64,000 nucleotides of DNA from an uncultured Actinomycetes bacterium. GTDB lineage: Bacteria > Actinomycetota > UBA4738 > HRBIN12. Of this stretch, positions 8,921-64,000 are shown in pieces. A program made the translations under genes and the position numbers. The DNA lies in assembly GCA_963723855.1 (NCBI GenBank), contig CAVRSI010000015.1, forward strand, positions 115,815-179,814. Direction: 5' to 3'. Numbering within the stretch: position 1 is the first letter of the stretch; every line of letters starts with the position of its first letter. The notes under the pieces are model-generated. The model saw nothing but the letters and a program-made list of their open reading frames with translations, searched no databases and was not told where the DNA came from.

Positions 8921-8951
8921 GAGACCCGGAGGTGTGCCGTCGCCGAACGGA

Positions 8952-11444
<2,493 letters not shown>

Positions 11445-12197: not shown

Positions 12198-12208
12198 CGT
12201 CCGAAGTG

Positions 12209-12631: not shown

Positions 12632-12721
12632 CGCGTCCCCTCCTCCTGCTCCCGTGAGATCACGGGCGTTCGCGCGGCCAAGTATAGGTGCCGCCCTTCG
12701 CGGCGGTATGCGTGGGACCGG

Positions 12722-20798: not shown

Positions 20799-20852
20799 GA
20801 CCGCATCGTAGTCCGATGCACCGCGAGTCGCCCCACGGCCGGGCGACGAGGG

Positions 20853-21430: not shown

Positions 21431-21442
21431 CGCGGCTCGATG

Positions 21443-22120
21443 CTACCCGTCACCAGGCGGAACGAGCCCGTCGAGCATGTCCGGCAGCCTCACGAGATCC
21501 GTGAGCTCGCCGGCGCGCGGGAGATCGCTCGTCTCGTCCTGCCGGTTGATCCACACGCACGGCAGACCCGAGTGCGGCGCACGGCTGCGACGTCGTGGAA
21601 GAGCGACGCCGCCACGTGCACGTGACGCGCACGGTCGGCCCGGGTCTGCGGAAGAACGACTCCCAGTGTCCGAACGCCGGCTTGTACGAGCCGATGTCGG
21701 ACGCCACGACGCGCAGATCGACCGGCACGCCGATCGCGGCGAGCGACGCGTCCAGGAAGTCGGGGTCGGTGTTCGACAGGATCGCCGAGCTTCCATCCCC
21801 GCGCCCGGAGCTCCGACAGCGACCGGGGCACGTCCGGGAACACGCGGCCAGGTCGGCAGCGACGCCCCAAGCGCGTCCTCGCGACCAGCGGGGACGCCAG
21901 CCCTTCGGCCGTCGCCACGCGCGCGAGCGCCTCGGCCATCACCGTCCTGTAGGGGATGCCCCGACCCGCCTGCACTGCGGGCTCGATCCGGTGATACCGG
22001 GACAGGAGCGTCCCGGCGTCGGCATCGGGCCACAGGCGAGCCGAGTGTCCCGCGGATCCCGGCCATCCAGTCGATGAGGGTTCCGTAGCAATCGAAGGTG
22101 GCCCAACGGTCCGGCGGCAT
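21443..22120 (-). CDS. HAD-superfamily hydrolase (haloacid dehalogenase II-like; frameshifted)
   Basis: [30 protein letters not shown]; TACAAT 6 nt before the ATG. Confidence 0.85.
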
Positions 22121-39931: not shown

Positions 39932-40011
39932 CTCATGCCTCCTTCGTCGTCCGATCCGAAGCTACTCCGCACTCCGTCCGTGGACGACCCGGCCGCCACC
40001 ACGGTTAGTCG

Positions 40012-40027
40012 GGGGTGCCAGCACCCC
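40012..40027. promoter_or_regulatory. 7-2-7 palindrome GGGGTGC-CA-GCACCCC, putative LuxR/NarL operator
   Basis: Perfect inverted repeat between the divergent USP and M36 genes; the core recurs at 45181-45190. Confidence 0.6.
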
Positions 40028-40137
40028 AGAGTGACGAAGACCTAGGTCGAAGACCGCTCACATCCCCCGCCATTCCGATGACCCGGCCAGGTTCGGGTGC
40101 TAGGTTGCTTCCTCAGTCGACAGGAGGGGGACTCCGC

Positions 40138-42925
40138 ATGCAGCACATCGACGGACGCCGACTGGATCGGCGTCGGATATCCGTGGCTGTGTTCACGACG
40201 GCGATGACGCTCGCCGCGGTCGTGGCAGTCACGGCGCCCGCACGCTCTGCCGGACGCGCGGCGTCCGGGCGCGCGCAGACGAGCCGGGCACGCGGGAACT
40301 TCGACGTCCGCGCCCAGGGAGGCGCCGCGGCGGCACCCAGCGCCCGCATCGCGCGTGCCCGGGTCGAGCTGGCGCGCCGCCTGGGCACCCAGGGCGTGAT
40401 CGAGTCGGATCCGCTGACCGGCACGCTCAGGATGGTCGGGCGACTGGACGGCTACCTGACGGGACGCAGCGCGCGCCCCGCGAAGGCCGTCGCCATCGGC
40501 TACGTCCGATCGAACCTCGCGGCCTTCGGATTGACCAAGGCCGACCTCAAGACGTTCCGCCTGCGACAGGACTACGTGGACATCGCGGGCGTGCACCACA
40601 TCTCGTGGACGCAGGCCAAGCACGGCGTGCCGGTGTTCCACAACGGCCTCCGCGCGAACGTGACGAGCGACGGGCGCCTGGTCAACATCACCGGTTCGCC
40701 GGTGCACGCCATCCGCATCGCATCGGCCGTCCCGGAGCATCACCTCGGACGCGGCGATCAGCGCGGCACGCGTCGACGGGGGTGCGACGGTCGCCGCCGC
40801 GCAGAGCTCAGACTCGGCATCGCTCGTGCTCTTCCCGACGGGACACGGCGCTCGGCTCGCATGGGAGACGTTCACCTGGCCGAACACGCAGCAGCTCGTT
40901 CATGTCGGTCGTGGACGCCCGGAGCGGGTCCGTGCTGTACCGGCAGAGCCTCACGAGCGACGACACCGGAACCGCGACGGCGTGGGAGTTCTACCCGAGC
41001 GACCTGGTCCCCGCCGGCGCGAACGTGGCGAACCCCGTCACGTTCCCGGTGGTCGACGGCACGAAGCTGAGCGGCGACAACGCGCACGTGTGGGCGGACG
41101 TGAAGGACAACAACAAGCCGGACCCGGGCGAGGAGATCCCCGCCGTGTCGGGAACGGATTGGAGCATGCCGGCGATCCTTGACACGACGAACGCCGCGCA
41201 GAACTGCACCACGTCGCGTCCCTGCACGTGGGACAAGAACGTCCCGTTCAGCTGGCAAGCGAACATGGCGCAGAACGCCGCTCAGGTCATGTACTACCTG
41301 AACAAGTACCACGACCACCTGGCCGGAGCGCCGTACGGCTTCACGGCAGCGGCGGGCAACTTCGAGGCGGCGGGAGGCGACCCGGTCCTGGGCAACGCGA
41401 TGGACGGCGCCAACTCGGGCAACGGCCTCCCGGACAAGAACCACTTCAACAACGCCAACATGAGCACGCCACCGGACGGCAAGTCGCCGACGATGCAGAT
41501 GTACCTGTTCCGCGCGCGGACAAGGGCTGCCCGCCTTGCCGAGCGTGAACGGCGGCGACGACGCCGAGGTCGTCTACCACGAGTACACGCACGGCCTGTC
41601 GGGCCGGCTCGTCCTGTACCCGGACGGCACGTCCGGCCTGACGACCCAGCAGGCGCAACTCGATGGGCGAGGGATGGAGCGACTGGTACGCAGAGGACTT
41701 CCTGAACAACCAGGGGTTCAAGCCGGACACGGCCGCGATCGGCGACGTCGTGATGGGCGCCATCACGTTCGCCGGGCTCCTTCGGTCCCAGCCGGTCGAC
41801 TGCCCGGTGGGCGCGCCGGCTCCGTGCGGCGGTACCCAGGGCGCGGGCCCCGGCGGCTACACGTACGGGGACTTCGGCAAGGTTGCCGGCTTCCCCGAGG
41901 TGCATGCCGACGGTGAGATCTGGCTGGAGACGCTCTGGCAGATCCGTCAGGCGCTCGGCCCGGCCATCGCCGAGACGCTCGTGACACGCGCGATGGAGCT
42001 GTCGCCGGGCGGGCCGTCCTACCTCGACATGCGGAACTCCATCATCCAGGCCGACCTGGTGAACTTCGGCGGGGCCAACGAGTCGGCGCTCTGGTCGATC
42101 TTCGCCGAGCGGGGCATGGGGTACTTCGCCGCGTCGACGAGCGACAGCGTGAACCCGATCGAGGACTTCTCGATCCCGCCGGACTGCACCACGTCCGATT
42201 GCGCGACGATCTCCGGCACGGTGAAGGACAAGACGTCCGGAAAGCCGGCCGCCGGAGTGACGGTGTCGGTGCCCGGGTTGGACTCGGGATTCGCGTCGGA
42301 TCTGGCGGACACGACCGACTCGGCGGGGCACTTCTCGATCGCCAACGTGCCGTTCCACACGTACCACCTGTTCTCCGATCGGAGGAGGGGGCTACGAGCC
42401 GTTCCTCGTCGGGAACGTCCCGGTCACGGGAGACGTGAGCCTCGACATCGAAGGTGATCCGCGACTGGGCGTCGATCGAGGGCGGAGCGAAGGTCGGCAA
42501 GTTCACGCCGCCCGACTACGGTCCGTTCGGGTGCGGTCCGGAGCAGTTGGTCGACCTGAACCTCGGTTCGGGCTGGGGATCCGACGCGGTGGGCAGCACC
42601 TCGGGCAGCCACGTCAAGGGCCCCCGCAAGGTCGTCATCAAGCTGCCGAAGGCCGTGGACGTCACGAGCTTCGCGCGTCGCCTCGTTCGGCGCGTGCGGC
42701 GACGGACCCGATGCCGGCGTGAAGAAGTTCAAGATCGAGACCAAGACGAACGGCGGCCAGTGGATCACCGCGTTCGTGGGCAAGGCGCCCAGCAACGACA
42801 AGTTGATGACGTACGTGCCGCATGCCGGCAAGGCCAACGTCCGGTTCGTGCGGTTCACCATGCTGTCGAACCACGGCGACCCGCTCTTCATGGACGTGAT
42901 GGAGCTCTCGGTCCGCGGCAAGTAG
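40138..42925 (+). CDS. Secreted M36 (fungalysin-family) metallopeptidase with propeptide and C-terminal beta domains (several indels)
   Basis: Signal peptide, FTP-like propeptide, NNANMSTPPDG.SP.MQMY, HEYTH, MGEGWSD, EVHADGEIW. Confidence 0.88.
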
Positions 42926-51813: not shown

Positions 51814-52297
51814 TCAGAGGTTCACGACCATCGATCCAGGAGCCGCCGTCGTCCTCCGCCACGCGCTCGAACCCGACCCGCTGGTACATCATCCGCGAGC
51901 GGTTGTGCACGGCGACGGAGAGCGAGAGCGCCTGGAACCCCTCCTCGCGCGCTTGCACCATGAGCGCCCGAAGCAACGTGCCCCCGATGCCCTTGCGGCG
52001 GTGCAGCGGCTCGACCGCGAGGCCGAGCTCGGGGATCTTCTCGTCCACGAACCCGTAGCCGGGGGCATCTGCCGTGAACAGCCGGTACCACGCGGCGCCG
52101 ACGGGCACGTCGTCGAGCTCCGCGATCACGCCCGCATCTCCCGGCCTGCCCCATCCTTCGTGGTAGCGCGTGGTCATCGGATCGGCGAGGACCTCCTCGA
52201 GCGACTCTCGGGGCCAGTCGGGGTTCCACCGAGCGGCCTCGTAGAGCATCTTCTGCAAGAACTCGACGTCGTCGTGCGTGGCCGGCCTGATGTTCAC
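51814..52297 (-). CDS. GNAT acetyltransferase (indel near the 3' end)
   Basis: IRPAT, GYGFVDEKIPEL, HRRKGIGG, LSLSV..N..MYQRVGF. Confidence 0.87.
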
Positions 52298-52333
52298 GCT
52301 GCCTCCTCGACCCCATGAGAAGCTTCCGCTCAG

Positions 52334-53276
52334 ATGGGAACGCTAATACAGCGGGTGACCGGTTGGCTCCGCGACTTCGGAGAAACCTGGCTCCTGCGGC
52401 TGCGTCCAGTGGATCTCCGTCCAGCTCGGCCGGTTCACCCCCCGCGTGCAGACCCGCATCGTCCGGGCCGTTCAGGTGGCGGTGGAGGTGCACGTCAAGA
52501 GCCTGTTCGACGACGTGAGCACGCAGGCCGCCGCCCTCACCTATGCCACGTTCCTGTCGCTGCTCCCCCTGCTCCTGGTCGGCTTCTCGCTCGCCGGAAC
52601 CGTGATCACGAGCGTCGGACAGACGACCTGGTTCCAGGATCTGATCGCCGGCATCCCGGGCCTGTCGGAAGCGGGCCTCGACTCCCTCCAGCACCAGCTC
52701 AGCGCGCGGGCCGACATCGGGTTCATCGGGTTGATCGGCGCCCTGTGGGCAGCGTCGGTGCTCTCGAGCCGCGCGGAACGGGCGCTCGCGAAGGTCTTCG
52801 ACGTGAAACGACGGAACGTCGTGAACCGGTTCCGCGCCGTGATGATCACGGTCGTGCTCGGCGCGGTGGTGATCGGCGGCTTGGTGGTCGGCGCCGTCGT
52901 CCAGAGCTACGACCTCCACGGCCTGATCGTGATCCCGGCGTGGATCGTGGTGCGTGTCCTGCTGCTCCTGGTGGAGTTCGGGTACTTCCTGCTGCTGTTC
53001 AAGCTGCTCACGCCCAGCAAGACGCTCCGGTGGCGCGACCACCTGCCCGGCGCGATCCTCATGACGCTCGGTTTCGGGGTCCTCAAGATCATCGGCGGCC
53101 TGCTCGTCTCCCGCACGGTCGCGCATTGGTCGTCGCTCTACGGGACCATCGGCAGCATCTTCGGCCTGCTCGTGATCATCCGACTGGCGATGTGGATCTT
53201 CATGTACGGCGCCGAGCTCTCGTCGGTGATCCTCCGAGAGGGGCAAGGCGATGCGGGCGTGCCGGCGACCGGCTAG
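52334..53276 (+). CDS. YihY/BrkB-family membrane protein (indel near 52440)
   Basis: AAALTYATFLSLLP, LPGAIL, YGTIGSIFGLL..GAEL. Confidence 0.85.
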
Positions 53277-53287
53277 TCTGATACGGA

Positions 53288-53845
53288 CTAGGTGAGCGGG
53301 ACCAGGTCGATCTCCGGCGCGACCGACTGAAGCCCGGCGATCGACACCGCGAGGAACTCGTCGAGCGGCAGCCCGATCGAAGACTCGACGTCCGTGATCT
53401 CCTGGCGGTTCACACCGGGCGCGAACGCCTTCTCCTTGAGCTTCTTCTTCACGGACGAGACCTTCATGCCGGTCGCCTTCTCGGGCCGGACCAGCGCCGA
53501 GGCGACCAGGAGGCCCGCGACCGCATCGGCGTGCACGACCGCCTTCGACATCAGGTCGGTCCGGTACTGCTCGTAGGCGTGCGCGAGCACGCCGTTCACG
53601 ATGCGCTCGTCCACGCCCTCCTCGCGGAGCCATGACGCCGCGAGCTCCGCGTGGCCGAGCCCTTCGTCGCCGGTGTGATCTTGGTCCAGATCGTGGAAGA
53701 GCCCGGTCAGTCCCCAGAGGTCGCGATCCTCGTCGAACCGGCCCGCGAGCGCTCGCATCACACCCTCCACGGAGATCAGGTGCCGAACCGTGGTCTCCTT
53801 GAGGCACTTCTCGCGGCAGAACGCCACCGCCCGGTCACGATCCAT
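53288..53845 (-). CDS. Small HD-domain phosphohydrolase
   Basis: RH...V, FHDLD, LAH, AD; LVRPEK..SVKKKLKEKAFA; overlaps the upstream transporter stop. Confidence 0.85.
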   Translation of the reverse strand: MDRDRAVAFCREKCLKETTVRHLISVEGVMRALAGRFDEDRDLWGLTGLFHDLDQDHTGDEGLGHAELAASWLREEGVDERIVNGVLAHAYEQYRTDLMSKAVVHADAVAGLLVASALVRPEKATGMKVSSVKKKLKEKAFAPGVNRQEITDVESSIGLPLDEFLAVSIAGLQSVAPEIDLVPLT

Positions 53846-56217
53846 CTCCCACCTCCGACGGTCTCGGCGCTGGTTGCGGATGACGAGGGTCCTCGACGAT
53901 GAACGGCACGCTCGACAGCACGGCTCGTTCCTCGAACAGGAAGAGGCGCTTGATGAACAACGCGTTCTGGTTGTGCAGGAGGTAGTGGCGCCACTTGTCC
54001 ACCAGGAACTCCGGGATCACGACGTTCACGACCGTGTCCTTCCGGACGGTGAACCGCCGAACCTCATCCAGCATCGGGCCGGTCAGGTCGCGGAACGGAG
54101 CCTCGACGATGTCGAGCGGGATGTCCAACCGTCGGTCGAACCACTGCTGCTCCAGGCGGTGCGCCTCGTCCGGATCCAGGTCGAAGTAGATCGCCCGTGT
54201 CTCCGACGGCGTCGATCGAGCGCGCGTAGTTCACCGCGCGGATCGTCGCGTCGTTCACCGAGGAGACGAACACCAGCGTGACCGTCCGCTGCGGGATCAA
54301 CGCCCGCACCTCCACCGCGCCGGGCTCCGGGTCCTCGACCACGACCGGCACGTCGGTGACCACGACGTTCGGCTCGCGCAGGAGCCCCGCCTTCAGCCGC
54401 ACCAGCTTCCGACGCCGGACCAGGTACCCGAAGAGCGACTCGCGGATCTCCTCGGGGACGATGACCGTGACGAAGTCGTTCGGCTGGCGCGGGAGCGCCC
54501 TGAGGTACGCGCGGGTCGCCGACAGCACGTCTCCTCCATGCGTCGGGAGCGCCTCGAGGTCCCGGTCGCCGCCGGCGAACGCCCGCCAGCGGTCCCGGAC
54601 CTCCGGTGGGATCGTGCCTCCTTCGACCGGATAGAGCGCGTGGACCTCGGGTGGACGGAAGGAGCGGATGTAACCGAGCGCCTCCGCGGTCGACCGCCCC
54701 AGGTCGCGCACCAACAGGACGACGTGGTTCACGCCGTAGTCGTCCGGTGCGACGGTGCCACGTCGCAACTGGGCCATGATCGCCAGGTAGTGCCGGTGGA
54801 TCGAGAGGAACGTCAGGACGATGATCGGCATCGCGACGATCACGATCCATGCGCCCTCGATGAACTTCGTGTAGGTCACGATGATGAGGACCAGGAACGT
54901 GGCCGCGGCACCGATCGCGTTGATCACGATCGATCGCTGCCATCCCTTCATGGCCGCATCGCCCTTGTGCTTCTCCTTCAGCCAGTGACGGACCATGCCC
55001 GTCTGCGACAGCGTGAACGACGTGAACACCCCCACCACGTACAGCTGGATCAGCTTGTTGAGGTTGGCGTCGAACACCAGGATCAAGAGGCTGGCGAACG
55101 CCCCGAGGACGATCACGCCGTTCGAGAAGACCAGGCGGTCGCCGCGGTTGGCGAACTGCCGGGGCATGAACCGGTCGCGCGCCAGGATGGACGACAGGCG
55201 CGGGAAGTCCTGATAGGAGGTGTTGGCCGCGAGCACCAGGATCGCCGTCGTGAAGAACTGCACGAAGTAGAAGAAGAACCCGCCGCCGAACACGGCGTGC
55301 GCGATCTGGCCCACGACCGAGCGTTCCTCGCTGACCGTGATCCCGTGGATGTGGGTCGCCAGGTAGGAGATCCCCACGAACATCGTGACCGAGATGATCC
55401 CCATGATGAGGAGCGTCTCGGATGCGTTCTTCGACTGCGGGCGACGGAACGCCGGGACCCCGTTGGAGATCGCCTCGACCCCGGTGAGGGCGGTCGAGCC
55501 CGACGAGAACGCGTGCAGGATCACGAACAGACCGACCGTGCGAACCGTGTTGGCGAGCTCCGGGGAGGGCACCACGTGATCCGTCACGACCGGACACCCG
55601 CTGAAGATGCACCGGGCCATCCCCGTGACGACCAGGATGATGATCGACACGATGAACGCGTACGTCGGAACCGCGAACAGCGTGCCCGACTCACGGACGC
55701 CGCGCAGGTTGGCGAGCGTGACCAGCAGGACGAATCCGAGCGACAGCTCCAGCTTGTACGGCGAAAGTGCCGGGAGCGCCGAGGTCATGGCGAACACACC
55801 CGCGACGACCGAGACCGCGACCGTCAGCACGTAGTCGGTCAGGAGGGCCGCGGCCGCGATGAGCCCGGGCAGGATCCCCAGGTTGTCCTTGCTCACGATG
55901 TACGCGCCGCCTCCGCTCGGATACGCCCGCACGGTCTGGCGGTACGACGACACCACGATGATCAACAGCGCCGCGATGGCGATCGAGATCGGCATGGCGA
56001 GCGCGACGGTGCCCGCGCTCGCGACCAGGAGCACCCGCAGGATCTCCTCGGTCGCGTACGCGACCGAGGACAACGCGTCCGACGAGAACACGGGCAGCGC
56101 GAGGATCTTGGGGAGCAGCGTGTGCTCGAGCCGGTCGCTGGCGACGGCCCGGCCGACCAGGACCCGCTTCAGCACGCCCTTGCCGGAGCCGGAGGTGGGA
56201 CGGGCGGTGGTCGACAC
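53835..56217 (-). CDS. KimA-like APC/KUP K+ transporter 1 (indel near 54200)
   Basis: FSSDALSSVAYATEE, YPSGGGAY, DYVLT, TGVEAISNG, AANTSYQDFPRL, RGDRLVFSNG, LYVVGVF; TAGAAT 6 nt before the GTG. Confidence 0.9.
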
Positions 56218-56226
56218 GCGGGGATT

Positions 56227-56917
56227 CTACGTGGACGGCTCGGCCACCCAGCGATAGCCGACGCCCGGCTCGGTGAGGATCAACGCCGGCGCGGACGCGT
56301 CGTCGCCGAGCTTCCTGCGCAACGCGCGGACGTAGGTGCGGAGGTACGTGGTCTCCGAGCCGTACCCCTGTCCCCAGACCTTGCGGAGCAGCCACTGATG
56401 CGTGAGCAGCTTCCCGGGGTTGGTCGCGAGCGCCTCGAGCAGCGAGTACTCGGTCGGCGTCAGGTGCACGACCTCAGCGTCCCGCGTGACCAGGCGGCGC
56501 GCGAGATCCAGCTGCGAGCGGGCCGAACGACAGGAGGGGAGGCGACGGGTCCGCCGACGCACGACGACGCAGCGTGGCGCGGGCGCGCGCCAGGAGCTCG
56601 TCCATCGCGAACGGCTTCGTCACGTAGTCGTCCGCTCCCGCGTCGAGCGCGCCGACCTTGTCCTGCGAGCCGTCGCGGACCGAGAGCACGATGACCGGGA
56701 CCTCCGAGAACGCTCGCACCCGCCGGACCACCTCGGTCCCGTCGATATCGGGGAGGCCGAGGTCGAGGAAGACGAGGTCGGGCGCGGAGTCTGCCACGTA
56801 CAGGACCCCTTCCTCTCCGGTGCCGACCGTCGCCACCTCGTACCCGTGCGCCTCGAGGCTCGTTCGGAGCGCCCGGCGGATCTGCGGCTCGTCGTCGACG
56901 ACGAGGACCCTCGTCAC
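56227..56917 (-). CDS. kdpE: KdpE-type OmpR-family response regulator (frameshifted)
   Basis: VVDDEPQIRRAL, LDLGLPD, ALDAGADDYVTKPF, HLTPTEY, KVWG, LRRKLGDD..P.LILTEPGVGYR. Confidence 0.88.
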
Positions 56918-58369
56918 CGCTGTTCCTCCCACATCGGCAGCTCGAACACGACGACCGTTCCCCCGCCCGGAGCTCCCTCCACCCAGATCTTGCCGCCGTG
57001 GGCCACGACGATCGCGCGCGCGATCGCGAGCCCGAGACCGCTGCCGGGTCGCTCCGGCGCGGCGTCCCCACGATAGAACGCCTCGAACACCCGCTCGCGG
57101 TCGTCCACCGGGATGCCCGGTCCGCGGTCGGCCACGCGCACCTGGACCACATCGAGGAACGGCGCGGCCGTGATCGAGATCTCGCTCCCCGCCGGCGAAT
57201 GGAGCGCGGCGTTCTCGAGGAGGTTGGTGAGGACCTGATCGATCTGTACCGGGTCGACGAACACGTCGGGCAGATCGGGACGGATCGCCGAATCGCACGC
57301 TGACCTCGGCGAGTTGCGGCCGCATACGCGCGACGACCGCCTGCACGAGCTCGTCGACGGCGGCGGGCTCGCGAGCCGGCTCCAGCGCGCCCGCCCGGAT
57401 CTTCGGCCAGATCCATCAGGTTGCCCACGACGCGATTGAGGCGATCGGTCTCCTCGAGCACGGTGGTGAGCAGTTCGTGTTGTTGCGAGGCGTCGTGCAC
57501 GGCCGACTGCGACAGCAAGCTCGTCACCGACGCCTTGATCGACGCGAGCGGGGTTCGGAGATCGTGCGTCACGCTCGAGAAGAGCGCCGCCCGAAGCTGG
57601 TTGGTCTCCGCGTCGAGCTGCGGCCCGTCGCACGCGCATGTCCAGCCGGGCGCGCTCGATCGCGAGCGCCGCCTGCTTCGCGGTCGCCTCCAGGAGTGCA
57701 TGCTCCGTCGCCGTGAACGCGTGCGCACCGGGCCTGCGCACCGCGCGTCACGGTTCCGAACGGCGTCTCGCCGATCGCGATGGGCACGGTCTCCGTTCGG
57801 CCCCTCTTCCTGCGGGGCCGCTCGGTCGGACCGCGATCGCGTGGAGCTCTTCCCCATCGAGCATGGCCCGGACCTCGCAACGGATGAGGTCGAACGGGTC
57901 GAGCAACGCCTGCGCGAAATCGTCGAGGACCCGCGAGAGCTGGCTCCCCGGAAAGGAGCTTGGCGGCGAGGTAGCCCAGGAGCCGCGCGTCGCGCTCTCG
58001 CCGTTCGGTTCGCTCCCGCTCTTCGAGCACGCGCGCCACCAGGAACCCCACGACGAGCGCGACCAGCAGGAGCACGACGGCCGCGACCACGTCTTCCACG
58101 GCCGCCACCCGGAACGTATAGCGCGGTGCCGTGAAGAAGAAGATGTATCCGGCGAACGACAGAGCCGCGGCCAGGAGCCCGCCCCACACCCCCGCCGCCG
58201 CCGCGGCGAGGACCACCGCCAAGAGGTAGAGCGAGACCGCCGTGACACCGCTGGAGCGGTTGATCGCGAGCGCGAGGCCCGTGGCGGCCGCCGGGAACCC
58301 GATCGCCGTTGCGGCGATCCGGGCAGGGGATGCCGGTCGCACGGGATGCCACAGGTCCCCGAGATGCAT
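56914..58369 (-). CDS. kdpD: KdpD membrane/kinase half (4 TM + GAF + HisKA + HATPase; frameshifted)
   Basis: DUF4118-like TMs (FFFTAPRYTF), LRAALFSSVTHDLRTPLASIK, LTNLLENA, DRGPGI, GSGLGL. Confidence 0.85.
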
Positions 58370-58387
58370 GGCGTCACGCTAGCCGCT

Positions 58388-58436
58388 TTCACGGGATCTT
58401 CACGCGTGGACGCCCGTCCTTCATGACTCCCTCACG
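58388..58436. promoter_or_regulatory. Direct-repeat operator (putative KdpE boxes)
   Basis: TTCACG 58388, TTCACG 58399, TTCATG 58420, CTCACG 58431: two pairs with 11-bp spacing. Confidence 0.62.
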
Positions 58437-58486
58437 CCGCGGCGCCGAAGCTGAGGGTGGTTACTCAGGAAGGAGGGATCGCCGCG

Positions 58487-60900
58487 ATGAAGACGGAGAA
58501 CGAGTCGCAGGCGCGGAGCGCCGCAACCGGACATCGCACGGCCCTCCCGCAGGGCAGCGCGTACTCCGTCAAGCGGGCGCTGCTCGGTCCCGCCCTGCCC
58601 ACCGCCAATCTGGCCCACGAGCGCTTGGGGAAGCCCACCGCGCTCGCCGTCTTCGCTTCCGACAACCTCTCCTCGGTCGCGTACGCGACCGAGGAGATCC
58701 TGAAGGTCGCCATCCTCGCGGGGGTCGGCGCGGCGGCCTTCACGCTCGTCATGCCGATCACGATCGGCATCCTCGTCGTCCTTGGGATCCTGCTGTTCTC
58801 CTACCGGCAGACCATCAAGGCCTATCCCAGCGCCGGCGGCGCGTACATCGTCACGAAGGACAACTTCGGTCTCCTGCCCGCGCAGATCGCCGGAGTCGCG
58901 TTGCTCACGGACTACGTGCTGACGGTGTCCGTCTCGGTCGCGGCCGGGATCGCCGCCGTCACGTCCGCCGTGCCGGGTCTGTATCCCTACCGCGTATGGA
59001 TGTCGGTCTTCTGCATCTGGTTCATCGCGTGGGGCAACCTCCGCGGGGTGCGCGAGTCGGGCCGGATGTTCGCGGTCCCGACGTATTTCTTCATCTTCAT
59101 GATGTTCCTGATGCTGGGGATCGGGCTCTTCCGGGAATTCACAGGCAGCCTCCACCCGCTGCCCATCCCGCCCGACATCTCGCAGGCGACCGGCGCGGTG
59201 ACCCTCTTCATCATCTTGAAGGCCTTCGCGTCGGGCGGCGCGGCCGTGACCGGCGTCGAGGCTGTCTCGAACGGCGTTCCCGCGTTCAAGCCCGTCGAAT
59301 GGAAGAACGCCCGGACCACGTTGATGTGGATGGGCAGCCTCCTGGGCCTGATGTTCCTGGGGCTCTCGTTCATCACGGTGAAGCTGCAGGTGGTGCCCAC
59401 GGAGACGAAGACCGTCATCTCCCAGGTCGGTCGGGCGATCTTCGGCCAGGGAGCGATGGGCTACGCGTTGTTCCTGGCGCTCCAGGTCGCCACGACCTTG
59501 ATCTTGATCCTGGCCGCGAACACGTCGTTCGCCGACTTCCCTCGCCTGGCGAACTTCCACGCCGCCGACAACTTCATGCCGAGGCAGCTCACCGTTCGCG
59601 GCCATCGCCTGGTCTTCTCGAACGGGATCATCGGCCTCGCCATCGCGTCCACCGTGCTGATCGTGCTGTTCAAGGCCGACGTGTCCAAGCTGATCCCGTT
59701 CTACGCGATCGGCGTGTTCACGTCGTTCACGCTCTCGCAGGCGGGCATGTCCAAGCGCCACCTCCGGCTGCGGGAGCCGGGCTGGCGCGTCGGCCTCGCG
59801 ATCAACGGCCTGGGCGCGATCACGACCGCCGTCGTCACGGTCGTGATCGCGGTCACGAAGTTCACCCACGGCGCGTGGGCGGTCATGGTGTTCGTTCCCG
59901 TGATGGTGCTGCTGCTGGTACGGATGAACCATCAGTACGAGCGCGAGGACGAGGAGCTGGGAGGCGACCTGGTCCGGCTCGACGCGAACGCAGGTCCAGC
60001 GGCCGATCGTCGTCCTGCTGGTCGAGTCGTTCGACACGAAGATGGTCCACGCGCTGGGGTACGCGAAGACGATCCGCGCCGAACAGACTCCTGGCGGTCC
60101 ACATCGAGGACGACCCGCTGACGACGCTCGAGCTGGAGACGGCGTGGGAGTCGGCGGGGCTGAGCGACATCCCGCTGAAGGTCCTGCGCGGTCGCGGCGA
60201 CGCCGGCGACCGGCTCGCGGGGTTCGTCGGCGGGCTGCCCGCCGACCGTGACGTGAACATCCTGCGTCCCGGTGTCCCACGAGGTGTCGCGGCTGGAGCG
60301 GCTCTCGGAGTCGCGCTCGGGCGCGCGGCTGGCCCGAGCGCTGCTTCCCTACGAGCAGGTGCGGGTGACGCTGGTCCGGGATCACCCGGAGGGCGTGCAC
60401 CCGCTGACGAAGGGCGCCGACGGATACGCGGAGGTCCGGCTACCGCGCGGGGAACCCACACGGCCGTCGTGCTCGTGGACAAGCTGGATCGCGCGACCCT
60501 CCGCGCGATCCATTACGCGCTGACGCTCGGCGCGAACGACGTCTTCGCCGTCCACGCCGCGATCGACCCCGCGAACGCGCGGCGTGCTCGCGGACGCGTG
60601 GATGGCCCAACACCTGCCCATCCCGCTCACGCTGCTGGAGTGTTGGGACCGAAACGTCACCCGGGCGCTCGAGCAGGACATCCTGCGCCTGTCCAAGGAC
60701 GGGACCGAGGTCACCGTCGTGATGCCGCGACGGGACTTCCCGAAGCTCCGTCAGCGGATGCTGCACGACCGGACGAGCCGCAGGATCATCCAAGGCGCTC
60801 GGCCGCTACTCGCACGTCGACGTCGCGATCGTCCCCTACTACTTCGCGCCCCGCAGTCCGGCCCGGACCGGACATGGCCGACGCGTCGGACGTCAAGTAG
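58487..60900 (+). CDS. KimA-like APC/KUP K+ transporter 2 (indels in the C-terminal part)
   Basis: FASDNLSSVAYATEE, DYVLT, TGVEAVSNG, AANTSFADFPRL, RGHRLVFSNG, FYAIGVF; AGGAGG SD. Confidence 0.9.
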
Positions 60901-60912
60901 GCTCTGCGGCCG

Positions 60913-61587
60913 ATGCGAGTGATCATCATGGGCTGCGGACGCGTGGGCTCCGAGCTGTCCCTGCAAGCTCGTCGAGGGCGGCCACGACGTCGACCGTCAT
61001 CGACAAGAAGCCGGAGGCGTTCATCAAGTACCCGCCCGGGCGACGGGCGCACGCAGATCGTGGGGCTGGGGTTCGATCGCGACGTGCTCGAGGAGGCCGG
61101 GATCAAGGAGGCGGAGGCGTTCGTCGCCGTCTCCAGCGGCGACAACTCGAACATCGTCTCGGCGCGGGTGGCGCTCGAGCACTACCACGTGCCGAAGGTG
61201 GTCGCCCGGATCTACGACCCGCGGCGCGCCGAGATCTACGAGACGCCTGAACATCCCCACGGTCGCCACCACGACGTGGGGCGTCGAAGCAGATCCAGCT
61301 GATGCTCTTCCACGACCGCCAGGAGGTCCGCGAGAGCCTCGGCGGCGGCGACCTGGTCCGCGCTGCGCGTCCCGGTGCCGCCGCATCTGGTCGGGAAGAC
61401 GGTGTCCGACGTGAACGTGCGACGGGAAGATCCTGGTCGCCGGCGTCGTCGCGCGGCGGCGGCGGGTTCATCCCCACCGCCGACAGCACGTTCCAGACCG
61501 GCGACTACCTCGCGGTCATCATGGCGAAGGACGGCATGGACCTGCTCGACGAGGTCATGATCGCCGCCGGCCGGGGAGCACCACTGA
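60913..61587 (+). CDS. TrkA/CeoB-like RCK protein (frameshifted)
   Basis: MRVIIMGCGRVG, GFDRDVLEEAGI, SSGDNSNI, VARIYDPRRAE. Confidence 0.87.
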
Positions 61588-62308
61588 TGCGGGTCGTCGT
61601 CACCGGAGCGGGCGCGGTCGGCCGGCATCTGGCCTCCGACCTCGCGGATCGCGGGCACACGGTCACGCTGATCGATCAGGACCCCGACGGTCGTGCGAGA
61701 AGGTCGCAGGAGTGGGCGCCGAACGTCACGGTGGTCCAGGGCGACGCGTGCGAGCCGTGGGTGCTCGAAGAGGCCGAGCTTGAAGCAGGCCGAGGTCGTG
61801 GTCGCGGCGACCGGCGACGACGAGGACAACCTGGTGACGTCGCTGCTCGCCAAGCAGGAGTTCGCCGTGCCCCGCGTCCTCGCCCGCGTGAACCACCCGA
61901 AGAACGAGTGGCTGTTCACCGAGCAGTGGGGCGTGGACGCCGCCGTCTCCCCGCCGCACATCCTGACCGCGATGGTCGAGGAGGCCGTGACCGTCGGCGA
62001 CCTCGTCCGGCTGATCCGGCTGGAGGGCGGGCGCATCTCGATCGTCGAGATGACGCTGCCCGATCGGCTCGCCGTCCGTCGGCCGCCCGCTGTACGAGCT
62101 GCGGCTGCCGCCCGACTCCGCCGTCGTCGCGATCCTCCGCGACGGCCACGTGGTGATCCCGCAGCCCGAGACCGTGTTCGCGCCGCGCGACGAGGTCGTG
62201 GCGCTCTGTTCGCCGGGCTCCGAAGCGGGGCTCCGCGCCGCCGTCGTCGGCGAGGACGCACCCGGCGGCACACCCAGGGACGGTCTCAGCAGCACCAGCG
62301 AGATCTAG
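61587..62308 (+). CDS. TrkA/CeoC-like RCK protein (frameshifted)
   Basis: MRVVVTGAGAVG, GDACE, ATGDDEDNLV, RVNHPKNEWLF..WGVD; TGATG coupling to the previous gene. Confidence 0.87.
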
Positions 62309-62358
62309 TCCCGCTCCACCCAGCGGCTCGCGGTCCGGGGCGGCGCATAATGACCGCG

Positions 62359-63543
62359 ATGGACGAGGGCACGGCGACCAAGCCGACGACCGAGACGGAG
62401 TCCGTCGAGTCCCTGACGGGCCGGCCGGAGATCGAATCGATCCTCCATACGGTCTGGACCCATAAGCAAGCCATCGCCGAGAAGCGCGCGCCCCTCCGGA
62501 TCTACCTCGGCGCCGCACCCGGCGTCGGCAAGACCTACGCGATGCTCTCCGAGGGGCAGCGCCGTCGCGAACGAGGGAGCGAGGTCGTGATCGGGGTCGT
62601 GGAGACATACGACCGGCCCAAGACGAAGGCGATCCTCGAAGGGCTGGAGGTCGTTCCGCCGAAGGCGATCGAGTACCGGGGCGTCACCCTTCAGGAGATG
62701 GACACGGAGGCCGTGATCCGGCGGCACCCCGAGACCGCCCTCGTCGACGAGCTCGCGCACACGAACGTCCCGGGCGTGCGTCGGGCGAAGCGCTGGGAGG
62801 ACGTCCTGGACATCCTGGCGGACGGGATCGAGGTCATCACCACCTTGAACATCCAACACATCGAGAGCCTGAACGACGTCGTCGCGAAAGCGACCGGGAT
62901 CCTGCAGCGGGAGACGGTGCCCGACTGGATCCTGGAGCTCGCCGACCAGGTCGAGCTGGTCGACATGTCGCCTCACGCGCTCCGGCGCCGGATGATGCAC
63001 GGCAACGTCTACCCCGATGCGCGCAAGGCGGAGCTCGCCCTGCGTCGATTCTTCACCGAGGAGAACCTCACCGCCCTCCGCGAGCTGGCGCTGATGCGCG
63101 TGGCGAACCAGGTCGACGAGGAACTGCTCTCGCGCTGGACGAAGGAGACGGTCCCGGACACGCGCGAGCGCGTGCTGGTCGGCGTCTCGCGGCCCGAGCT
63201 CGCCGAGGACCTGGTCCGGCGTGGCGCGCGGGTGGCGCAGCGCGCGCACGGCGACCTGCTGGTCGTGCACGTCGTCGGCACCGAGGAGCGCGGCGAGCCC
63301 GAGTGGCTCGCCGGGATCCGCGACCTGACCTCGAAGCTCGACGGCGAGTTCGAGGTGATCAGATCGGAGTCCGCCGTCGAGGGCGTGGTCGGCTACGCGG
63401 TACGGCAGCACGTCACGCAGATCGTCGTCGGGGAGCCGTTGAAGCCCCGCTGGCAGGAGATCCTTCGGGGCTCGTTCGTGAACCGGCTGATCCGGAAAGC
63501 GTCCGAGATCGACATCCACGTGATCGCGCAACGCAAGGGTTGA
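62359..63543 (+). CDS. Stand-alone KdpD N-terminal domain + USP domain (soluble half of a split KdpD)
   Basis: IYLGAAPGVGKTYAML, VDELAHTN, KRWEDV, TTLNIQHIESLND, RETVPD, NLTALRELAL, then a USP fold; no TM; CATAAT upstream (alternative start 62350). Confidence 0.9.
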   Translation: MDEGTATKPTTETESVESLTGRPEIESILHTVWTHKQAIAEKRAPLRIYLGAAPGVGKTYAMLSEGQRRRERGSEVVIGVVETYDRPKTKAILEGLEVVPPKAIEYRGVTLQEMDTEAVIRRHPETALVDELAHTNVPGVRRAKRWEDVLDILADGIEVITTLNIQHIESLNDVVAKATGILQRETVPDWILELADQVELVDMSPHALRRRMMHGNVYPDARKAELALRRFFTEENLTALRELALMRVANQVDEELLSRWTKETVPDTRERVLVGVSRPELAEDLVRRGARVAQRAHGDLLVVHVVGTEERGEPEWLAGIRDLTSKLDGEFEVIRSESAVEGVVGYAVRQHVTQIVVGEPLKPRWQEILRGSFVNRLIRKASEIDIHVIAQRKG

Positions 63544-63552
63544 CTGGCGGCA

Positions 63553-63584
63553 CGAGCGCTCCGGGCCTCGGCCCGGAGCGCTCG
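63553..63584. terminator. 14-bp hairpin between convergent genes
   Basis: CGAGCGCTCCGGGC-CTCG-GCCCGGAGCGCTCG. Confidence 0.78.
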
Positions 63585-63600
63585 GCCTCCCGTTGATCCC

Positions 63601-64000
63601 CTAACCGAAGAAGCCGCCGTGTGCTGCTGTGACGACGATGCCGAACGGCGTCGCGCCGGTCGGAAGAGCCGCCGGTGAGCTCGGAAGCTCGGTCAGGCTC
63701 CCGCCGGACACGGCGAACGCGCTCACGGCGTTAAGTGCCGCGTCGACGACGTACAGGTGTCTGCCGCTCGGATCCAACCGAGCATCGAACGGACGGATGC
63801 CCGCGCCGCTGGTGAACGCCGTGCTGGTCAGGTACTGCAACGAGCCATCCGCCTGGATCTGGTAGCTGGAGATGGTCGTGCTGCCCGTGTTGACGGCGAA
63901 CAGGTAGCGGCCGTCATGGGAGATCTCGACCCAGCACGGAGCCGTCTGCCCGTCGGCGAACGGCGACGCCCCGATCGAGCTCAGCTGCCCGGTGAAGCCG
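63601..64000 (-). CDS. Lactonase-like 7-bladed beta-propeller protein, C-terminal part (truncated by the window)
   Basis: PCWVEISHDGRYLFAVNTG, LDPSGRHLYVVD, SGGSLTEL..SP, GIVV. Confidence 0.75.
   Translation of the reverse strand, partial: GFTGQLSSIGASPFADGQTAPCWVEISHDGRYLFAVNTGSTTISSYQIQADGSLQYLTSTAFTSGAGIRPFDARLDPSGRHLYVVDAALNAVSAFAVSGGSLTELPSSPAALPTGATPFGIVVTAAHGGFFG

What the first reader, a model, noticed from the sequence alone, without database searches (positions are those of the whole stretch)
53288..63543. KdpDE apparently rewired to KimA-like transporters and TrkA instead of KdpFABC
Seen: divergent units kdpD(TM-kinase)-kdpE-transporter 1-HD and transporter 2-trkA-trkA-kdpD(N+USP), bounded by unrelated genes and a terminator, with no kdpFABC and no TrkH/KtrB pore. 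Both transporters keep the KimA signature Asp/Tyr/Glu motifs. Known: KdpDE canonically controls the Kdp ATPase; B. subtilis kimA is controlled by a c-di-AMP riboswitch; APC-ceoBC linkage exists in mycobacteria. Inference: an inducible K+/H+ uptake system under two-component control, with RCK proteins acting on an APC-fold carrier.
Basis: partly seen in the sequence, partly recalled or inferred. Interest (0 to 1): 0.78.

Follow-up and report, generated by a model that had tools for sequence, protein, structure and literature searches.

The report
KimA/TrkA potassium module with KdpDE paralogue
An uncultured soil actinobacterium has two KimA-type potassium importers and two TrkA regulator proteins next to their own copy of the KdpD/KdpE sensor pair, a conserved wiring I found in no paper, but the Kdp pump sits nearby with a second sensor pair and the broken frames here are assembly errors.

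Summary
Two things need correcting.

1. Six of the eight genes are out of frame in this assembly: 29 window-only inserted bases and 1 deletion. Relatives and short-read contigs lack these bases. With them skipped, every gene reads open and 94-97% identical to the closest relative. They are assembly errors, not decay.
2. "Instead of KdpFABC" is wrong. kdpFABC lies 13 kb downstream on the same contig, with its own kinase and KdpE.

What stands:
- Both carriers are true KimA relatives (E 1.7e-130 to PDB 6S3K), with all eight K+/H+ site residues kept and a doubled C-terminal domain.
- The adjacent regulator belongs to a separate, well-supported clade that is consistently KimA-linked.
- The 117-base divergent promoter carries four conserved TTCACG repeats.
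- In the order, 59 of 61 genomes have the TrkA pair, 56 of them within 3 kb of a KimA-type gene. TrkH was found in 1 of 61.
- No c-di-AMP cyclase was found in 31 relatives.

Best reading: an inducible K+/H+ uptake regulon run by a KdpDE paralogue, probably gated by TrkA. This scan noted the same cluster earlier in other genomes. Six literature searches found no description.

The parts
53288..53845 (-). HD-domain (HDIG) phosphohydrolase, 185 aa. It is the last gene of the leftward operon and overlaps the T1 stop by 11 bases. Its substrate is unknown.
   Evidence: Pfam HD 1.6e-09; NCBIfam HDIG; no solved relative by sequence; atlas clusters named 'HD domain-containing protein'. It lies next to a KimA-type gene in 14 of 43 actinobacterial loci.
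53835..56217 (-). T1, a KimA-type K+/H+ symporter of about 793 aa: a transmembrane domain plus two tandem KimA-type cytosolic domains. One window-only inserted base at 54208 breaks the frame in this assembly.
   Evidence: The G005 orthologue matches KimA 6S3K at E 1.7e-130, transmembrane part 16-492 against 5-469 and C-domain 644-772 against 473-603. The motifs SSDALSSVAY, LLTDYVLTVAVS, ALTGVEAIS, LYVVGVF and MPRQ are in the window sequence. The internal C-domain duplication scores E 4e-08.
56227..56917 (-). KdpE-type OmpR-family response regulator (RR1), 229 aa. One inserted base at 56515 splits the receiver domain from the DNA-binding domain in this assembly.
   Evidence: Response_reg and Trans_reg_C were found in two different frames. 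The orthologue scores 214 bits to E. coli KdpE 4KNY; the next family, MtrA, scores 160. It falls in a KimA-linked clade of 23 regulators with support 98/93.
56914..58369 (-). Truncated KdpD-type histidine kinase (HK1), 482 aa: DUF4118 membrane part, linker, HisKA and HATPase. It has no KdpD-N or USP part. Seven inserted bases break the frame in this assembly.
   Evidence: Pfam DUF4118, HisKA and HATPase_c appear in separate frames in the window and in one frame in G005. NCBIfam KdpD PRK10490 scores 203 bits, below its cut-off. Insertions are listed.
58370..58486 (.). Shared divergent control region. Direct repeats TTCACG-like sit at 58389-58394, 58400-58405, 58421-58426 (TCATGA here) and 58432-58437, forming two pairs 11 bases apart with 32 bases between pairs. 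There is an extra TCACGC at 58374. A GGAAGGAGGG ribosome site lies 8 bases before the T2 ATG.
   Evidence: Sequence read. Repeat positions are conserved in 11 aligned loci from several genera. In a genome-wide weight-matrix scan these are the two best sites (31.4 and 23.8 bits), though the window's own sites were part of the matrix.
58487..60900 (+). T2, the second KimA-type symporter, about 802 aa, about 40% identical to T1. Six inserted bases and one deletion after 59990 break the C-terminal domains in this assembly.
   Evidence: AA_permease_2. The motifs FASDNLSSVAY, LLTDYVLTVSVS, AVTGVEAVS and FYAIGVF are present. Insertions are listed.
60913..61587 (+). TrkA_a, a single-RCK protein (TrkA_N + TrkA_C), 221 aa, with a GCGRVG nucleotide-binding motif. 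Nine inserted bases in this assembly.
   Evidence: Pfam on the intact orthologue; motif found and no c-di-AMP RCK_C signature; insertions.
61587..62308 (+). TrkA_b, the second single-RCK protein, 238 aa, with a GAGAVG motif. Five inserted bases in this assembly.
   Evidence: Pfam; motif; insertions. These two are the only TrkA_N genes found in the genome.
62350..63543 (+). Kinase-less 'short KdpD': KdpD N-terminal domain plus USP, 397 aa, intact. It is the only KdpD-N domain found in the genome.
   Evidence: Pfam KdpD 1.8e-89 and Usp. NCBIfam KdpD_non_kinase scores 364 bits, below its cut-off of 550. The Walker A-like GAAPGVGKT and Walker B LVDE motifs are present. Single copy in the genome.
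63537..63599 (+). GC-rich hairpin with a perfect 14-pair core and no T run, directly after the operon. Probably a terminator.
   Evidence: -54.5 kcal/mol, z -7.19.

Best explanation
This is a conserved actinobacterial potassium-uptake regulon built from two divergent operons that share one 117-base control region.

Leftward operon: a KdpD-type histidine kinase that keeps only the membrane and kinase half, a KdpE-type response regulator, a KimA-type K+/H+ symporter (T1) and a small HD hydrolase. Rightward operon: a second KimA-type symporter (T2), two single-RCK TrkA proteins and a kinase-less KdpD (KdpD-N plus USP).

Proposed working. At low K+ the kinase phosphorylates the regulator. The regulator binds the two pairs of TTCACG repeats and switches on both operons, including its own genes. 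The KimA-type carriers then take up K+ with protons. The TrkA pair, which binds a nucleotide and has no TrkH pore in this lineage, tunes the carriers. The kinase-less KdpD acts as the atypical serine kinase described for KdpD N-domains, shutting off KdpB (and perhaps more) when K+ is plentiful.

The sensor pair is a specialised paralogue that works beside the Kdp system, not in place of it. kdpFABC lies 13 kb away and has its own kinase and regulator. The broken frames in the window are consensus errors of the assembly.

Shown: gene identities, conserved residues, synteny, the paralogue clade, conserved repeats, lack of TrkH and of a c-di-AMP cyclase in the genomes searched, and the artefactual nature of the frameshifts. 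Inferred: K+ as substrate and signal, regulator binding to the repeats, TrkA acting on the carriers, and the target of the short KdpD.
For: Carriers. E 1.7e-130 to KimA 6S3K over the transmembrane and C domains. D36, Y43, D117, T121, S125, T230, E233 and Y377, named in passages of PMC6994465, are all kept in T1 and T2.

Operon packing. Gaps or overlaps of at most 41 bases between genes.

Regulator. 214 bits to E. coli KdpE. It falls in a clade of 23 regulators (support 98/93), of which 22 have a KimA-type gene and 1 a TrkA gene as nearest labelled neighbour. This clade is separate from the clade of 6 (support 97/93) that holds this genome's kdp-linked regulator.

Synteny. Of 43 actinobacterial loci with a KimA-type gene, 28 hold kinase plus KdpE-type regulator in the same gene chain, 19 hold TrkA and 14 hold both.

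Order-wide tallies. The TrkA pair is in 59 of 61 genomes. In 56 of those 59 it lies within 3 kb of a KimA-type gene: 49 within 200 bases, 1 at 765 bases, 6 at about 2.5-2.8 kb. I compared the coordinates by eye. TrkH was found in 1 of 61.

Operator. Four repeats are conserved in position in 11 aligned loci.

Short KdpD. Walker A-like and Walker B motifs are present, and KdpB keeps the TGES serine, matching the serine-kinase mechanism in passages of PMC11018627.

No alternative control found. No riboswitch and no DAC domain in 0 of 31 relatives, including 0 of 17 high-quality genomes.

Artefact. 29 insertions against 1 deletion. With the window-only bases skipped there are no stops, identity to G005 is 94-97%, and synonymous differences outnumber non-synonymous ones in the broken genes as in the intact ones. 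All 12 indels listed from other runs' contigs are bases that the window has in excess.
Against: - No transport, binding or expression data exist for any of these proteins.
- The organism is known only from metagenome-assembled genomes.
- 15 of 43 actinobacterial loci show a KimA-type gene without the kinase/regulator pair and 24 of 43 without TrkA, although many of those contigs end nearby.
- Outside Actinomycetota the link is rare: 2 of 14 Chloroflexota loci, and 0 of 16 loci from Acidobacteriota, Cyanobacteriota and others under my 1-kb chaining rule, which misses L043 and L073.
- The kdp promoter also carries TCAYG-like words, so cross-regulation between the two pairs cannot be excluded.
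- The short KdpD scores below the NCBIfam cut-off (364 against 550 bits).
- The weight-matrix ranking is partly circular, because the window's own sites were in the matrix.
- The genome is only 76% complete by marker genes, so absences in it are weak. They rest mainly on the more complete relatives.
Confidence: 0.62

Rival explanations
1. One reading: the organism's only KdpDE system has been redirected from the Kdp pump to KimA-type carriers, and Kdp is missing.
For: Inside the 64-kb window there is no kdpABC (one search places the only KdpA match outside it). The only KdpD-N domain of the genome sits in this locus.
Against: kdpC, kdpB and kdpA, with a second DUF4118-GAF-HisKA-HATPase kinase and a KdpE-type regulator, lie 13 kb downstream on the same contig. 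The two regulators fall in different, well-supported clades. In several relatives both pairs and kdpAB sit in one supercluster: L017, L018, L024, L025, L039, L086.
Confidence: 0.03
2. One shared regulon with cross-talk. The two kinase/regulator pairs are not insulated. Either regulator binds both the KimA/TrkA control region and the kdpFABC promoter, and the single short KdpD serves both kinases as a detached input domain.
For: The kdp promoters of this genome and of L017, L018 and L024 contain TCACG, TCATG or TTACG-like words, some 11 bases apart. There is only one KdpD-N/USP protein for two truncated kinases. The two regulators are 50-57% identical.
Against: The best weight-matrix score in the kdp promoter is 8.6 bits, against 31.4 and 23.8 for the local sites, and it is not among the 144 genome sites above 10 bits. 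The paralogue clades have stayed distinct across many genera, which usually goes with insulation.
Confidence: 0.2
3. The TrkA pair does not regulate the KimA-type carriers. It acts on something else, such as an unrecognised pore, the kinase, or KdpFABC, and is merely co-expressed.
For: No interaction is shown. KimA of B. subtilis works without an RCK partner, being a homodimer regulated through its own cytosolic domain (passages of PMC10284832). 24 of 43 actinobacterial KimA-type loci show no TrkA in the chain.
Against: In the order, 56 of 59 genomes with the TrkA pair have it within 3 kb of a KimA-type gene. The other 3 have it within 1.3 kb of a contig end. TrkH/KtrB was found in 1 of 61 genomes. 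These are the only TrkA_N genes of the genome. In M. tuberculosis, transposon mutants in ceoB and in the adjacent Rv2690c gave the same phenotype (passages of PMC12216072).
Confidence: 0.25
4. The locus is decaying in this strain. The frameshifts are real and the module is a set of pseudogenes.
For: Six of eight genes are out of frame as written. No run with more than 15% of the sampled words was found, so the source reads could not be checked directly.
Against: - 29 insertions against 1 deletion, none shared with G005 or G010.
- No stop codon once the extra bases are skipped, and the same excess of synonymous change as in the intact genes.
- Similar patches of window-only insertions occur elsewhere in the window: 15 in 20-22 kb and 8 in 40-42 kb. 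The window-wide count is 112 against 49.
- A 99%-alike short-read contig spanning 57319-57510, which covers the insertion at 57405, has one gap. All 12 listed indels in other runs are bases the window has in excess.
- Completeness is only 76% in a 55-contig assembly, which fits widespread frame errors.
Confidence: 0.05
5. The carriers move something other than K+ (amino acids, polyamines or ammonium), as their public 'APC family permease / amino acid transporter' names suggest, and the two-component system senses that substrate.
For: Public names are 'amino acid transporter' or 'APC family permease'. Pfam sees only AA_permease_2.
Against: About half of the transmembrane residues match KimA, and all eight residues that bind K+ or couple protons are kept. 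Every neighbour (KdpD parts, KdpE, TrkA) belongs to K+ homeostasis. In several relatives kdpAB lies in the same cluster.
Confidence: 0.05

Closest known systems
KimA of Bacillus subtilis (KUP family K+/H+ symporter; PDB 6S3K, 8B70, 8B71)
   Same: LeuT-fold transmembrane domain aligned end to end (E 1.7e-130). D36, Y43, D117, T121, S125, T230, E233 and Y377 are kept. R337 of the MPR motif is kept. There is a PPAT-like cytosolic domain at the C-terminus.
   Different: The protein has about 150 extra residues that form a second, diverged copy of the cytosolic domain. There is no ydaO-type c-di-AMP riboswitch, and no c-di-AMP cyclase was found in 31 relatives. The genes sit beside a two-component system and an RCK pair rather than standing alone.
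KdpD/KdpE with kdpFABC (E. coli)
   Same: A DUF4118 membrane part with HisKA and HATPase. The regulator is most like KdpE (214 bits to 4KNY). The control site is a direct repeat in a promoter next to a K+ uptake operon.
   Different: The kinase lacks the KdpD-N and USP half, which is a separate gene at the far end of the opposite operon. The neighbouring targets are KimA-type carriers and TrkA, not the pump. The pump has its own paralogous pair.
Short, kinase-less KdpD of Deinococcus geothermalis: atypical serine kinase acting on KdpB (passages of PMC11018627)
   Same: A KdpD N-domain with G-X5-GKT and D-E motifs plus USP, and no histidine-kinase part. KdpB keeps the TGES serine.
   Different: It is encoded in a KimA/TrkA operon, 13 kb from kdpFABC. 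Control by c-di-AMP is unlikely where no cyclase is found. It scores below the NCBIfam KdpD_non_kinase cut-off. Activity is untested.
CeoB/CeoC 'Trk' system of mycobacteria with the adjacent Rv2690c
   Same: Two separate TrkA-type proteins described as the K+ uptake system with no pore named (passages of PMC13163235). The adjacent membrane-protein gene gives the same mutant phenotype as ceoB (passages of PMC12216072).
   Different: That Rv2690c is a KimA relative is my recollection and was not tested here. I saw no two-component system described next to it. In S. venezuelae a KimA-like gene (Vnz_27465) and an RCK_C protein (Vnz_27460) carry neighbouring locus tags, but the review passages I read do not link them.
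TrkAH / KtrAB channels gated by RCK rings
   Same: TrkA_N plus TrkA_C proteins with a GxGxxG nucleotide site.
   Different: No TrkH/KtrB family protein was found in this genome or in 60 of 61 genomes of the order. The only conserved membrane neighbour is a LeuT-fold carrier.

Membership tests
KimA subfamily of KUP K+/H+ symporters | Sequence relationship to KimA over the whole transmembrane domain | tested here: met
   phmmer against PDB: 6S3K E 1.7e-130, residues 16-492 against 5-469. This used the G005 orthologue, which is 96.5% identical to the window's T1.
KimA subfamily of KUP K+/H+ symporters | K+-site and proton-coupling residues D36, Y43, T121, Y377 and E233 (plus D117, S125, T230) | tested here: met
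   The residue list comes from passages of PMC6994465. All are present in the alignment and in the window's T1 and T2.
KimA subfamily of KUP K+/H+ symporters | C-terminal cytosolic (PPAT-like) domain | tested here: met
   Residues 644-772 match KimA 473-603. A second upstream copy was detected by BLASTP at E 4e-08.
KimA subfamily of KUP K+/H+ symporters | K+ uptake coupled to protons | not testable with these tools
   Needs complementation and flux assays.
KdpD/KdpE two-component system | Sensor carries the KdpD N-terminal domain and USP fused to the membrane and kinase parts | tested here: not met
   The kinase has DUF4118, HisKA and HATPase only. KdpD-N plus USP is a separate 397-aa protein.
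KdpD/KdpE two-component system | Regulator of the KdpE type | tested here: met
   214 bits to E. coli KdpE, against 160 for the next family.
KdpD/KdpE two-component system | Encoded beside kdpFABC and controlling it | tested here: not met
   The neighbours are KimA-type and TrkA genes. kdpFABC is 13 kb away with its own pair. The regulator falls in a separate clade. The kdp promoter scores 8.6 bits with the local operator matrix. Control itself was not tested.
Trk/Ktr K+ uptake systems | RCK subunit with TrkA_N and TrkA_C | tested here: met
   Both domains are present in both proteins.
Trk/Ktr K+ uptake systems | TrkH/KtrB-type pore subunit in the genome | tested here: not met
   PF02386 gave 0 matches in G000 (76% complete). 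In the order it matched 1 of 61 genomes and 1 of 39 high-quality ones; the single match is in unpublished genome G047.
Kinase-less KdpD (atypical serine kinase) | KdpD domain with Walker A-like G-X5-GKT and Walker B D-E, USP, and no histidine-kinase part | tested here: met
   GAAPGVGKT at 54-62 and LVDE at 131-134, and the protein ends after USP. The motif definitions come from passages of PMC11018627.
Kinase-less KdpD (atypical serine kinase) | Reaches the curated NCBIfam KdpD_non_kinase score | tested here: not met
   364 bits against a cut-off of 550.
Kinase-less KdpD (atypical serine kinase) | Phosphorylates the TGES serine of KdpB | not testable with these tools
   The target motif TGES is present in this genome's KdpB. 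Activity needs an assay.

The most novel reading that the evidence does not exclude
In a whole order of soil actinobacteria that appears to lack c-di-AMP, K+ uptake through LeuT-fold KimA-type carriers is controlled by a different three-layer system. (1) A dedicated KdpD/KdpE paralogue switches the genes on through a four-repeat operator. (2) A heteromeric TrkA RCK assembly gates a carrier instead of a TrkH/KtrB channel. (3) A detached KdpD N-domain serine kinase supplies post-translational shut-off. The same TrkA-carrier pairing would then be the missing membrane partner of the mycobacterial CeoBC 'Trk' system.
Probability: 0.35. Interest if true: 0.75.

Novelty: new variant of a known kind. 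Interest (0 to 1): 0.56.

Why it matters
KimA-type carriers are known only as stand-alone proteins controlled by c-di-AMP. RCK/TrkA proteins are known only as gates of TrkH/KtrB-type pores, Kef/Kht antiporters and channels. KdpDE is the textbook regulator of one pump.

Here all three are combined in a conserved way, in a lineage where neither a TrkH pore nor a c-di-AMP cyclase was found.

If TrkA really acts on a LeuT-fold carrier, that is a new kind of RCK target. It would also name the long-missing membrane component of the actinobacterial 'Trk' (CeoBC) system, which papers describe as two TrkA proteins only.

The locus offers a simple, testable operator, regulator and target set for a KdpDE paralogue.

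It is also a practical warning. In this assembly the genes look like pseudogenes only because of local consensus errors.

Tried and rejected
- **Complex prediction.** T2 (residues 46-802, alignment A2) with TrkA_a (alignment A3): no verdict, score 0.01 against a mark of 0.32, and the controls were not run. This says nothing either way.
- **Source reads.** I looked for runs holding the stretch in order to check the frameshifts on the source reads. The best holders share only 0.15 of the sampled words. What I laid were contigs of related strains, so they support the artefact reading but do not prove it.
- **Riboswitch.** An Rfam scan at E up to 1 over 52000-64000 gave only three sub-threshold chance hits.
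- **Promoters and terminators.** The consensus scan gave 0 promoters and 1 intragenic terminator-like site, fewer than in the shuffles. It is uninformative at this G+C content.
- **HD protein.** No solved relative by sequence, and only generic 'HD domain' clusters in the atlas. Its substrate stays unknown.
- **Simple operator pattern.** The pair TCACG-N6-TCACG occurs 18 times in the genome against 30 expected, so it is not specific by itself. The exact hexamer TCACGC is not enriched in the window (82 against 76.7). Only the clustered, conserved array is meaningful.
- **Third-best matrix site.** C15:215834 scores 21.6 bits, but by my own arithmetic about two sites of that score are expected by chance, so I dropped it.
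- **Which regulator is the 'true' KdpE.** The kdp-linked query was N-terminally short (212 aa), so 163 against 214 bits is not a fair contest.
- **Mycobacterial pore partner.** PMC6375644 holds none of my search terms.
- **** was a coordinate slip (a stop inside the translation).
- **Pseudogene reading:** considered and rejected; see the rival explanations.

Full report
**What is in the sequence**

The window is G000:C15:115815-179814. The genome is a metagenome-assembled one of 3.30 Mb, 68.8% G+C and 55 contigs, and 76% complete by marker genes.

A GC3 frame plot shows the coding phase jumping repeatedly inside the kinase, both trkA genes and the C-terminal part of T2. It jumps once each in kdpE and T1.

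The closest relative, G005, is 92% identical over the whole 10.3 kb. There the same nine genes are intact and tightly packed.

Aligning the window with G005 and G010 gives the true coordinates and shows 29 window-only inserted bases and one deletion inside the finding: T1 1, kdpE 1, kinase 7, T2 6 plus 1 deletion, trkA_a 9, trkA_b 5. There is one more insertion in the flanking brkB/yihY gene.

**Are the frameshifts real?**

I think not, for five reasons.

- The changes are almost all insertions (29 to 1), lie outside homopolymer runs, and are private to this assembly.
- When the private bases are skipped, every gene reads without a stop and is 94-97% identical in protein to G005. Codons with synonymous differences outnumber non-synonymous ones in the broken genes (for example trkA_a 47 to 13, kinase 88 to 21), just as in the unbroken ones (kdpD-N 66 to 17).
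- Patches of the same kind occur elsewhere in the window: 15 in 20-22 kb and 8 in 40-42 kb. Window-wide there are 112 window-extra against 49 G005-extra indels whose length is not a multiple of three.
- Contigs of four public soil and sediment runs were laid on 56800-62400. All 12 indels listed are bases the window has in excess. A 99%-alike short-read contig covering 57319-57510, which spans the insertion at 57405, has one gap. These contigs come from related strains, not certainly from the source sample, so this is support and not proof.
- The low completeness of an assembly with few, long contigs fits widespread frame errors. kdpA downstream is split in the same way.

**The carriers**

The T1 orthologue matches B. 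subtilis KimA (PDB 6S3K) at E 1.7e-130. The transmembrane part aligns 16-492 to 5-469 and the last domain 644-772 to 473-603.

The passages I read of Tascon et al. (PMC6994465) name D36, Y43, T121, S125, T230 and Y377 around the occluded K+, D117 in the tunnel, and E233 for proton coupling. All eight are kept in T1 and T2 of the window. R337 of the c-di-AMP site (passages of PMC10284832) is also kept, as MPRQ.

The roughly 150 residues between the membrane part and the KimA-like C-domain are a diverged second copy of that domain (BLASTP E 4e-08, 24% identity over 135 residues).

T1 and T2 are about 40% identical to each other. They are the only KimA-type genes in the genome. No Kup and no TrkH was found in it.

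More than 8000 database proteins match T1 at E 1e-20 or better. The best 120 are 706-800 residues long and are named, where named at all, 'APC family permease' or 'amino acid transporter', mostly from uncultured Actinomycetota.

**The sensor parts**

The kinase (482 aa) has the DUF4118 membrane part, HisKA and HATPase, but no KdpD-N or USP.

The regulator scores 214 bits to E. coli KdpE, against 160 for MtrA, the next family.

The KdpD-N plus USP protein is a separate, intact gene at the end of the opposite operon, and it is the only KdpD-N domain in the genome. It carries the Walker A-like G-X5-GKT and the Walker B D-E. Passages of Silberberg et al. (PMC11018627) show these make the KdpD N-domain an atypical serine kinase that inactivates KdpB at its TGES serine. 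The same paper describes short, kinase-less KdpDs. This genome's KdpB keeps TGES.

**Kdp is not missing**

PF03814 finds kdpA at C15:195261-196896, 15 kb beyond the window's end.

Around it lie kdpB, kdpC and two small kdpF-like ORFs. Divergently from them lie a DUF4118-GAF-HisKA-HATPase kinase and a KdpE-type regulator. So the genome has two kinase/regulator pairs of this type, one beside the pump and one beside the KimA-type genes.

**Are the two pairs different lineages?**

Yes. I built a maximum-likelihood tree of 47 KdpE-like regulators taken from the fetched loci.

- The window's orthologues sit in a clade of 23 (support 98/93). For 22 of them the nearest labelled neighbour is a KimA-type gene, and for 1 it is TrkA.
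- This genome's kdp-linked regulator sits in a separate clade of 6 (support 97/93), together with the kdp-linked ones of L017, L018 and L024.
- A third clade of 7 (support 100/100) holds Acidimicrobiia-type pairs with full-length KdpD. One of these (L086) precedes a KimA-type gene and a TrkA pair.

The labels came from a simple nearest-gene rule, and the root is only a midpoint.

**Synteny**

From 74 loci found in one-genome-per-species contigs with two KimA peptide patterns, I chained neighbouring genes with gaps of at most 1 kb.

| Group | Loci with a KimA-type gene | Kinase + KdpE-type regulator | TrkA | Both | KdpD-N | kdpA/B | HD gene |
|---|---|---|---|---|---|---|---|
| Actinomycetota | 43 | 28 | 19 | 14 | 7 | 6 | 14 |
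| Chloroflexota | 14 | 2 | 0 | 0 | 1 | 0 | 0 |
| Acidobacteriota, Cyanobacteriota, other | 16 | 0 | 0 | 0 | 0 | 0 | 0 |

One further actinobacterial locus had no transporter hit that passed my filter. Many contigs end close to the gene. My gap rule also misses L043 and L073, where the pair lies a little further away.

**TrkA without TrkH**

In 61 genomes sampled from the order:

- TrkH/KtrB (PF02386) was found in 1.
- The TrkA pair was found in 59, including 39 of 39 high-quality genomes.
- KimA-type genes were found in 60.

I compared the coordinates by eye. In 56 of the 59 genomes the TrkA pair lies within 3 kb of a KimA-type gene on the same contig: 49 within 200 bases, 1 at 765 bases, and 6 at 2.5-2.8 kb, a gap that fits the kinase and regulator. 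In the other 3 (G024, G041, G042) the TrkA gene is within 1.3 kb of a contig end.

These tallies include unpublished genomes (G023, G032, G045, G047, G048, G055, G065, G068). Without them the figures are 48 of 51 for adjacency and 0 of 53 for TrkH, because the one TrkH match is in G047.

The two TrkA proteins have GxGxxG motifs and lack the RCK_C c-di-AMP signature. That signature is quoted in the Streptomyces review PMC10117811.

**The control region**

The 117 bases between the two start codons hold TTCACG-like words at 58389, 58400, 58421 (TCATGA here) and 58432. They form two pairs 11 bases apart, with the pairs 32 bases apart. There is an extra TCACGC at 58374.

The four positions are conserved in 11 aligned loci, including three from other genera or families (L023, L024, L069). 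An ACGCTA box next to the kinase start is also conserved. This arrangement is what OmpR/PhoB-type regulators use; that statement is established knowledge, not tested here.

With a 20-base matrix built from these sites, the two local sites are the best in the genome (31.4 and 23.8 bits). This is partly circular, because the window's own sites were included. The kdp promoter reaches only 8.6 bits, although it and its counterparts in L017, L018 and L024 do hold loosely similar TCAYG words.

The lead for the repeats came from earlier notes of this scan on other genomes. I re-derived them here.

**No c-di-AMP layer found**

No riboswitch is present. The DAC domain was found in 0 of 31 relatives, including 0 of 17 high-quality genomes, while the control genomes, including Corynebacterium glutamicum, did ring. 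B. subtilis kimA is controlled by c-di-AMP at the RNA and protein level (passages). In this lineage that control seems to be replaced.

**Literature**

Six full-text searches gave no paper linking KimA-type carriers to a KdpDE-type system or to TrkA/CeoBC.

- Mycobacterial papers describe 'Trk' as two TrkA proteins (passages of PMC13163235).
- One transposon study groups ceoB with the adjacent Rv2690c (abstract and passages of PMC12216072).
- The Streptomyces review lists two KimA-like proteins, no TrkH/KtrB, and six RCK_C proteins. One of the RCK_C proteins, Vnz_27460, carries a locus tag next to the KimA-like Vnz_27465, and it did not bind c-di-AMP. The passages I read draw no link between the two.

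Subscription journals and the supplements of these papers were not seen.

**Verdict**

There is a dedicated KdpDE-type paralogue wired to KimA-type carriers and TrkA, working beside Kdp and not instead of it.

This scan reported the same cluster and operator before in other genomes (e1-5243441, e1-911603, e1-911604). This window is a further, poorly polished copy.

Noticed in passing
window 20000-22000 and 40000-42000 (also 56000-62100): Patches of single-base insertions private to this assembly: 15 and 8 per 2 kb against G005. Window-wide there are 112 window-extra against 49 G005-extra indels whose length is not a multiple of three. Genes in these patches will look like pseudogenes, and the 76% completeness is probably an underestimate for the same reason.
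   Followed up: partly
whole genome and 30 relatives of the order: No diadenylate cyclase (DAC, PF02457) was found in 0 of 31 genomes, including 0 of 17 high-quality ones, while the control genomes rang. The lineage may lack c-di-AMP signalling altogether, which is unusual for Actinomycetota.
   Followed up: partly
G000:C15:192579-199452 (L014:12765-19638): kdpC, kdpB and kdpA with two small kdpF-like ORFs, and a divergent DUF4118-GAF-HisKA-HATPase kinase plus a KdpE-type regulator. kdpA is split near its N-terminus into two frames, probably another assembly error. The promoter holds three GTTCC words and TCAYG-like words.
   Followed up: partly
L014:2673-3341 (about G000:C15:182487): A third KdpE-like response regulator (46.6% identical to the window's) lies in the 13-kb stretch between the short kdpD and kdpC. 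In the tree it groups with distant outliers.
   Followed up: no
window 54200-55300 (T1) and 60000-60900 (T2): The cytosolic tail of these carriers is a tandem duplication of the KimA-type domain. Carriers from Chloroflexota, Cyanobacteriota and some Acidimicrobiia give hits about 600-630 residues long and seem to have one copy, yet in L062 and L086 they still sit beside a TrkA pair.
   Followed up: partly
window 52334-53276 (+): A YihY/BrkB-family membrane protein converges on the HD gene. It keeps this place in G005, and weaker BrkB-like matches lie near the cluster in L017 and L048. It carries one private inserted base at 52402.
   Followed up: no
G000:C15:215834-215853: This is the third-best genome match (21.6 bits) to the operator matrix. 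It lies in an apparently non-coding stretch before a small membrane-anchored ORF. About two such scores are expected by chance.
   Followed up: partly
L086 (Acidimicrobiaceae MAG contig), 2-13220: The order is kdpB, full-length kdpD, kdpE, a second full-length kdpD, kdpE, a KimA-type gene, and two trkA genes, all on one strand. It looks like an earlier stage of the same duplication, before the kinases lost their N-terminal halves.
   Followed up: no
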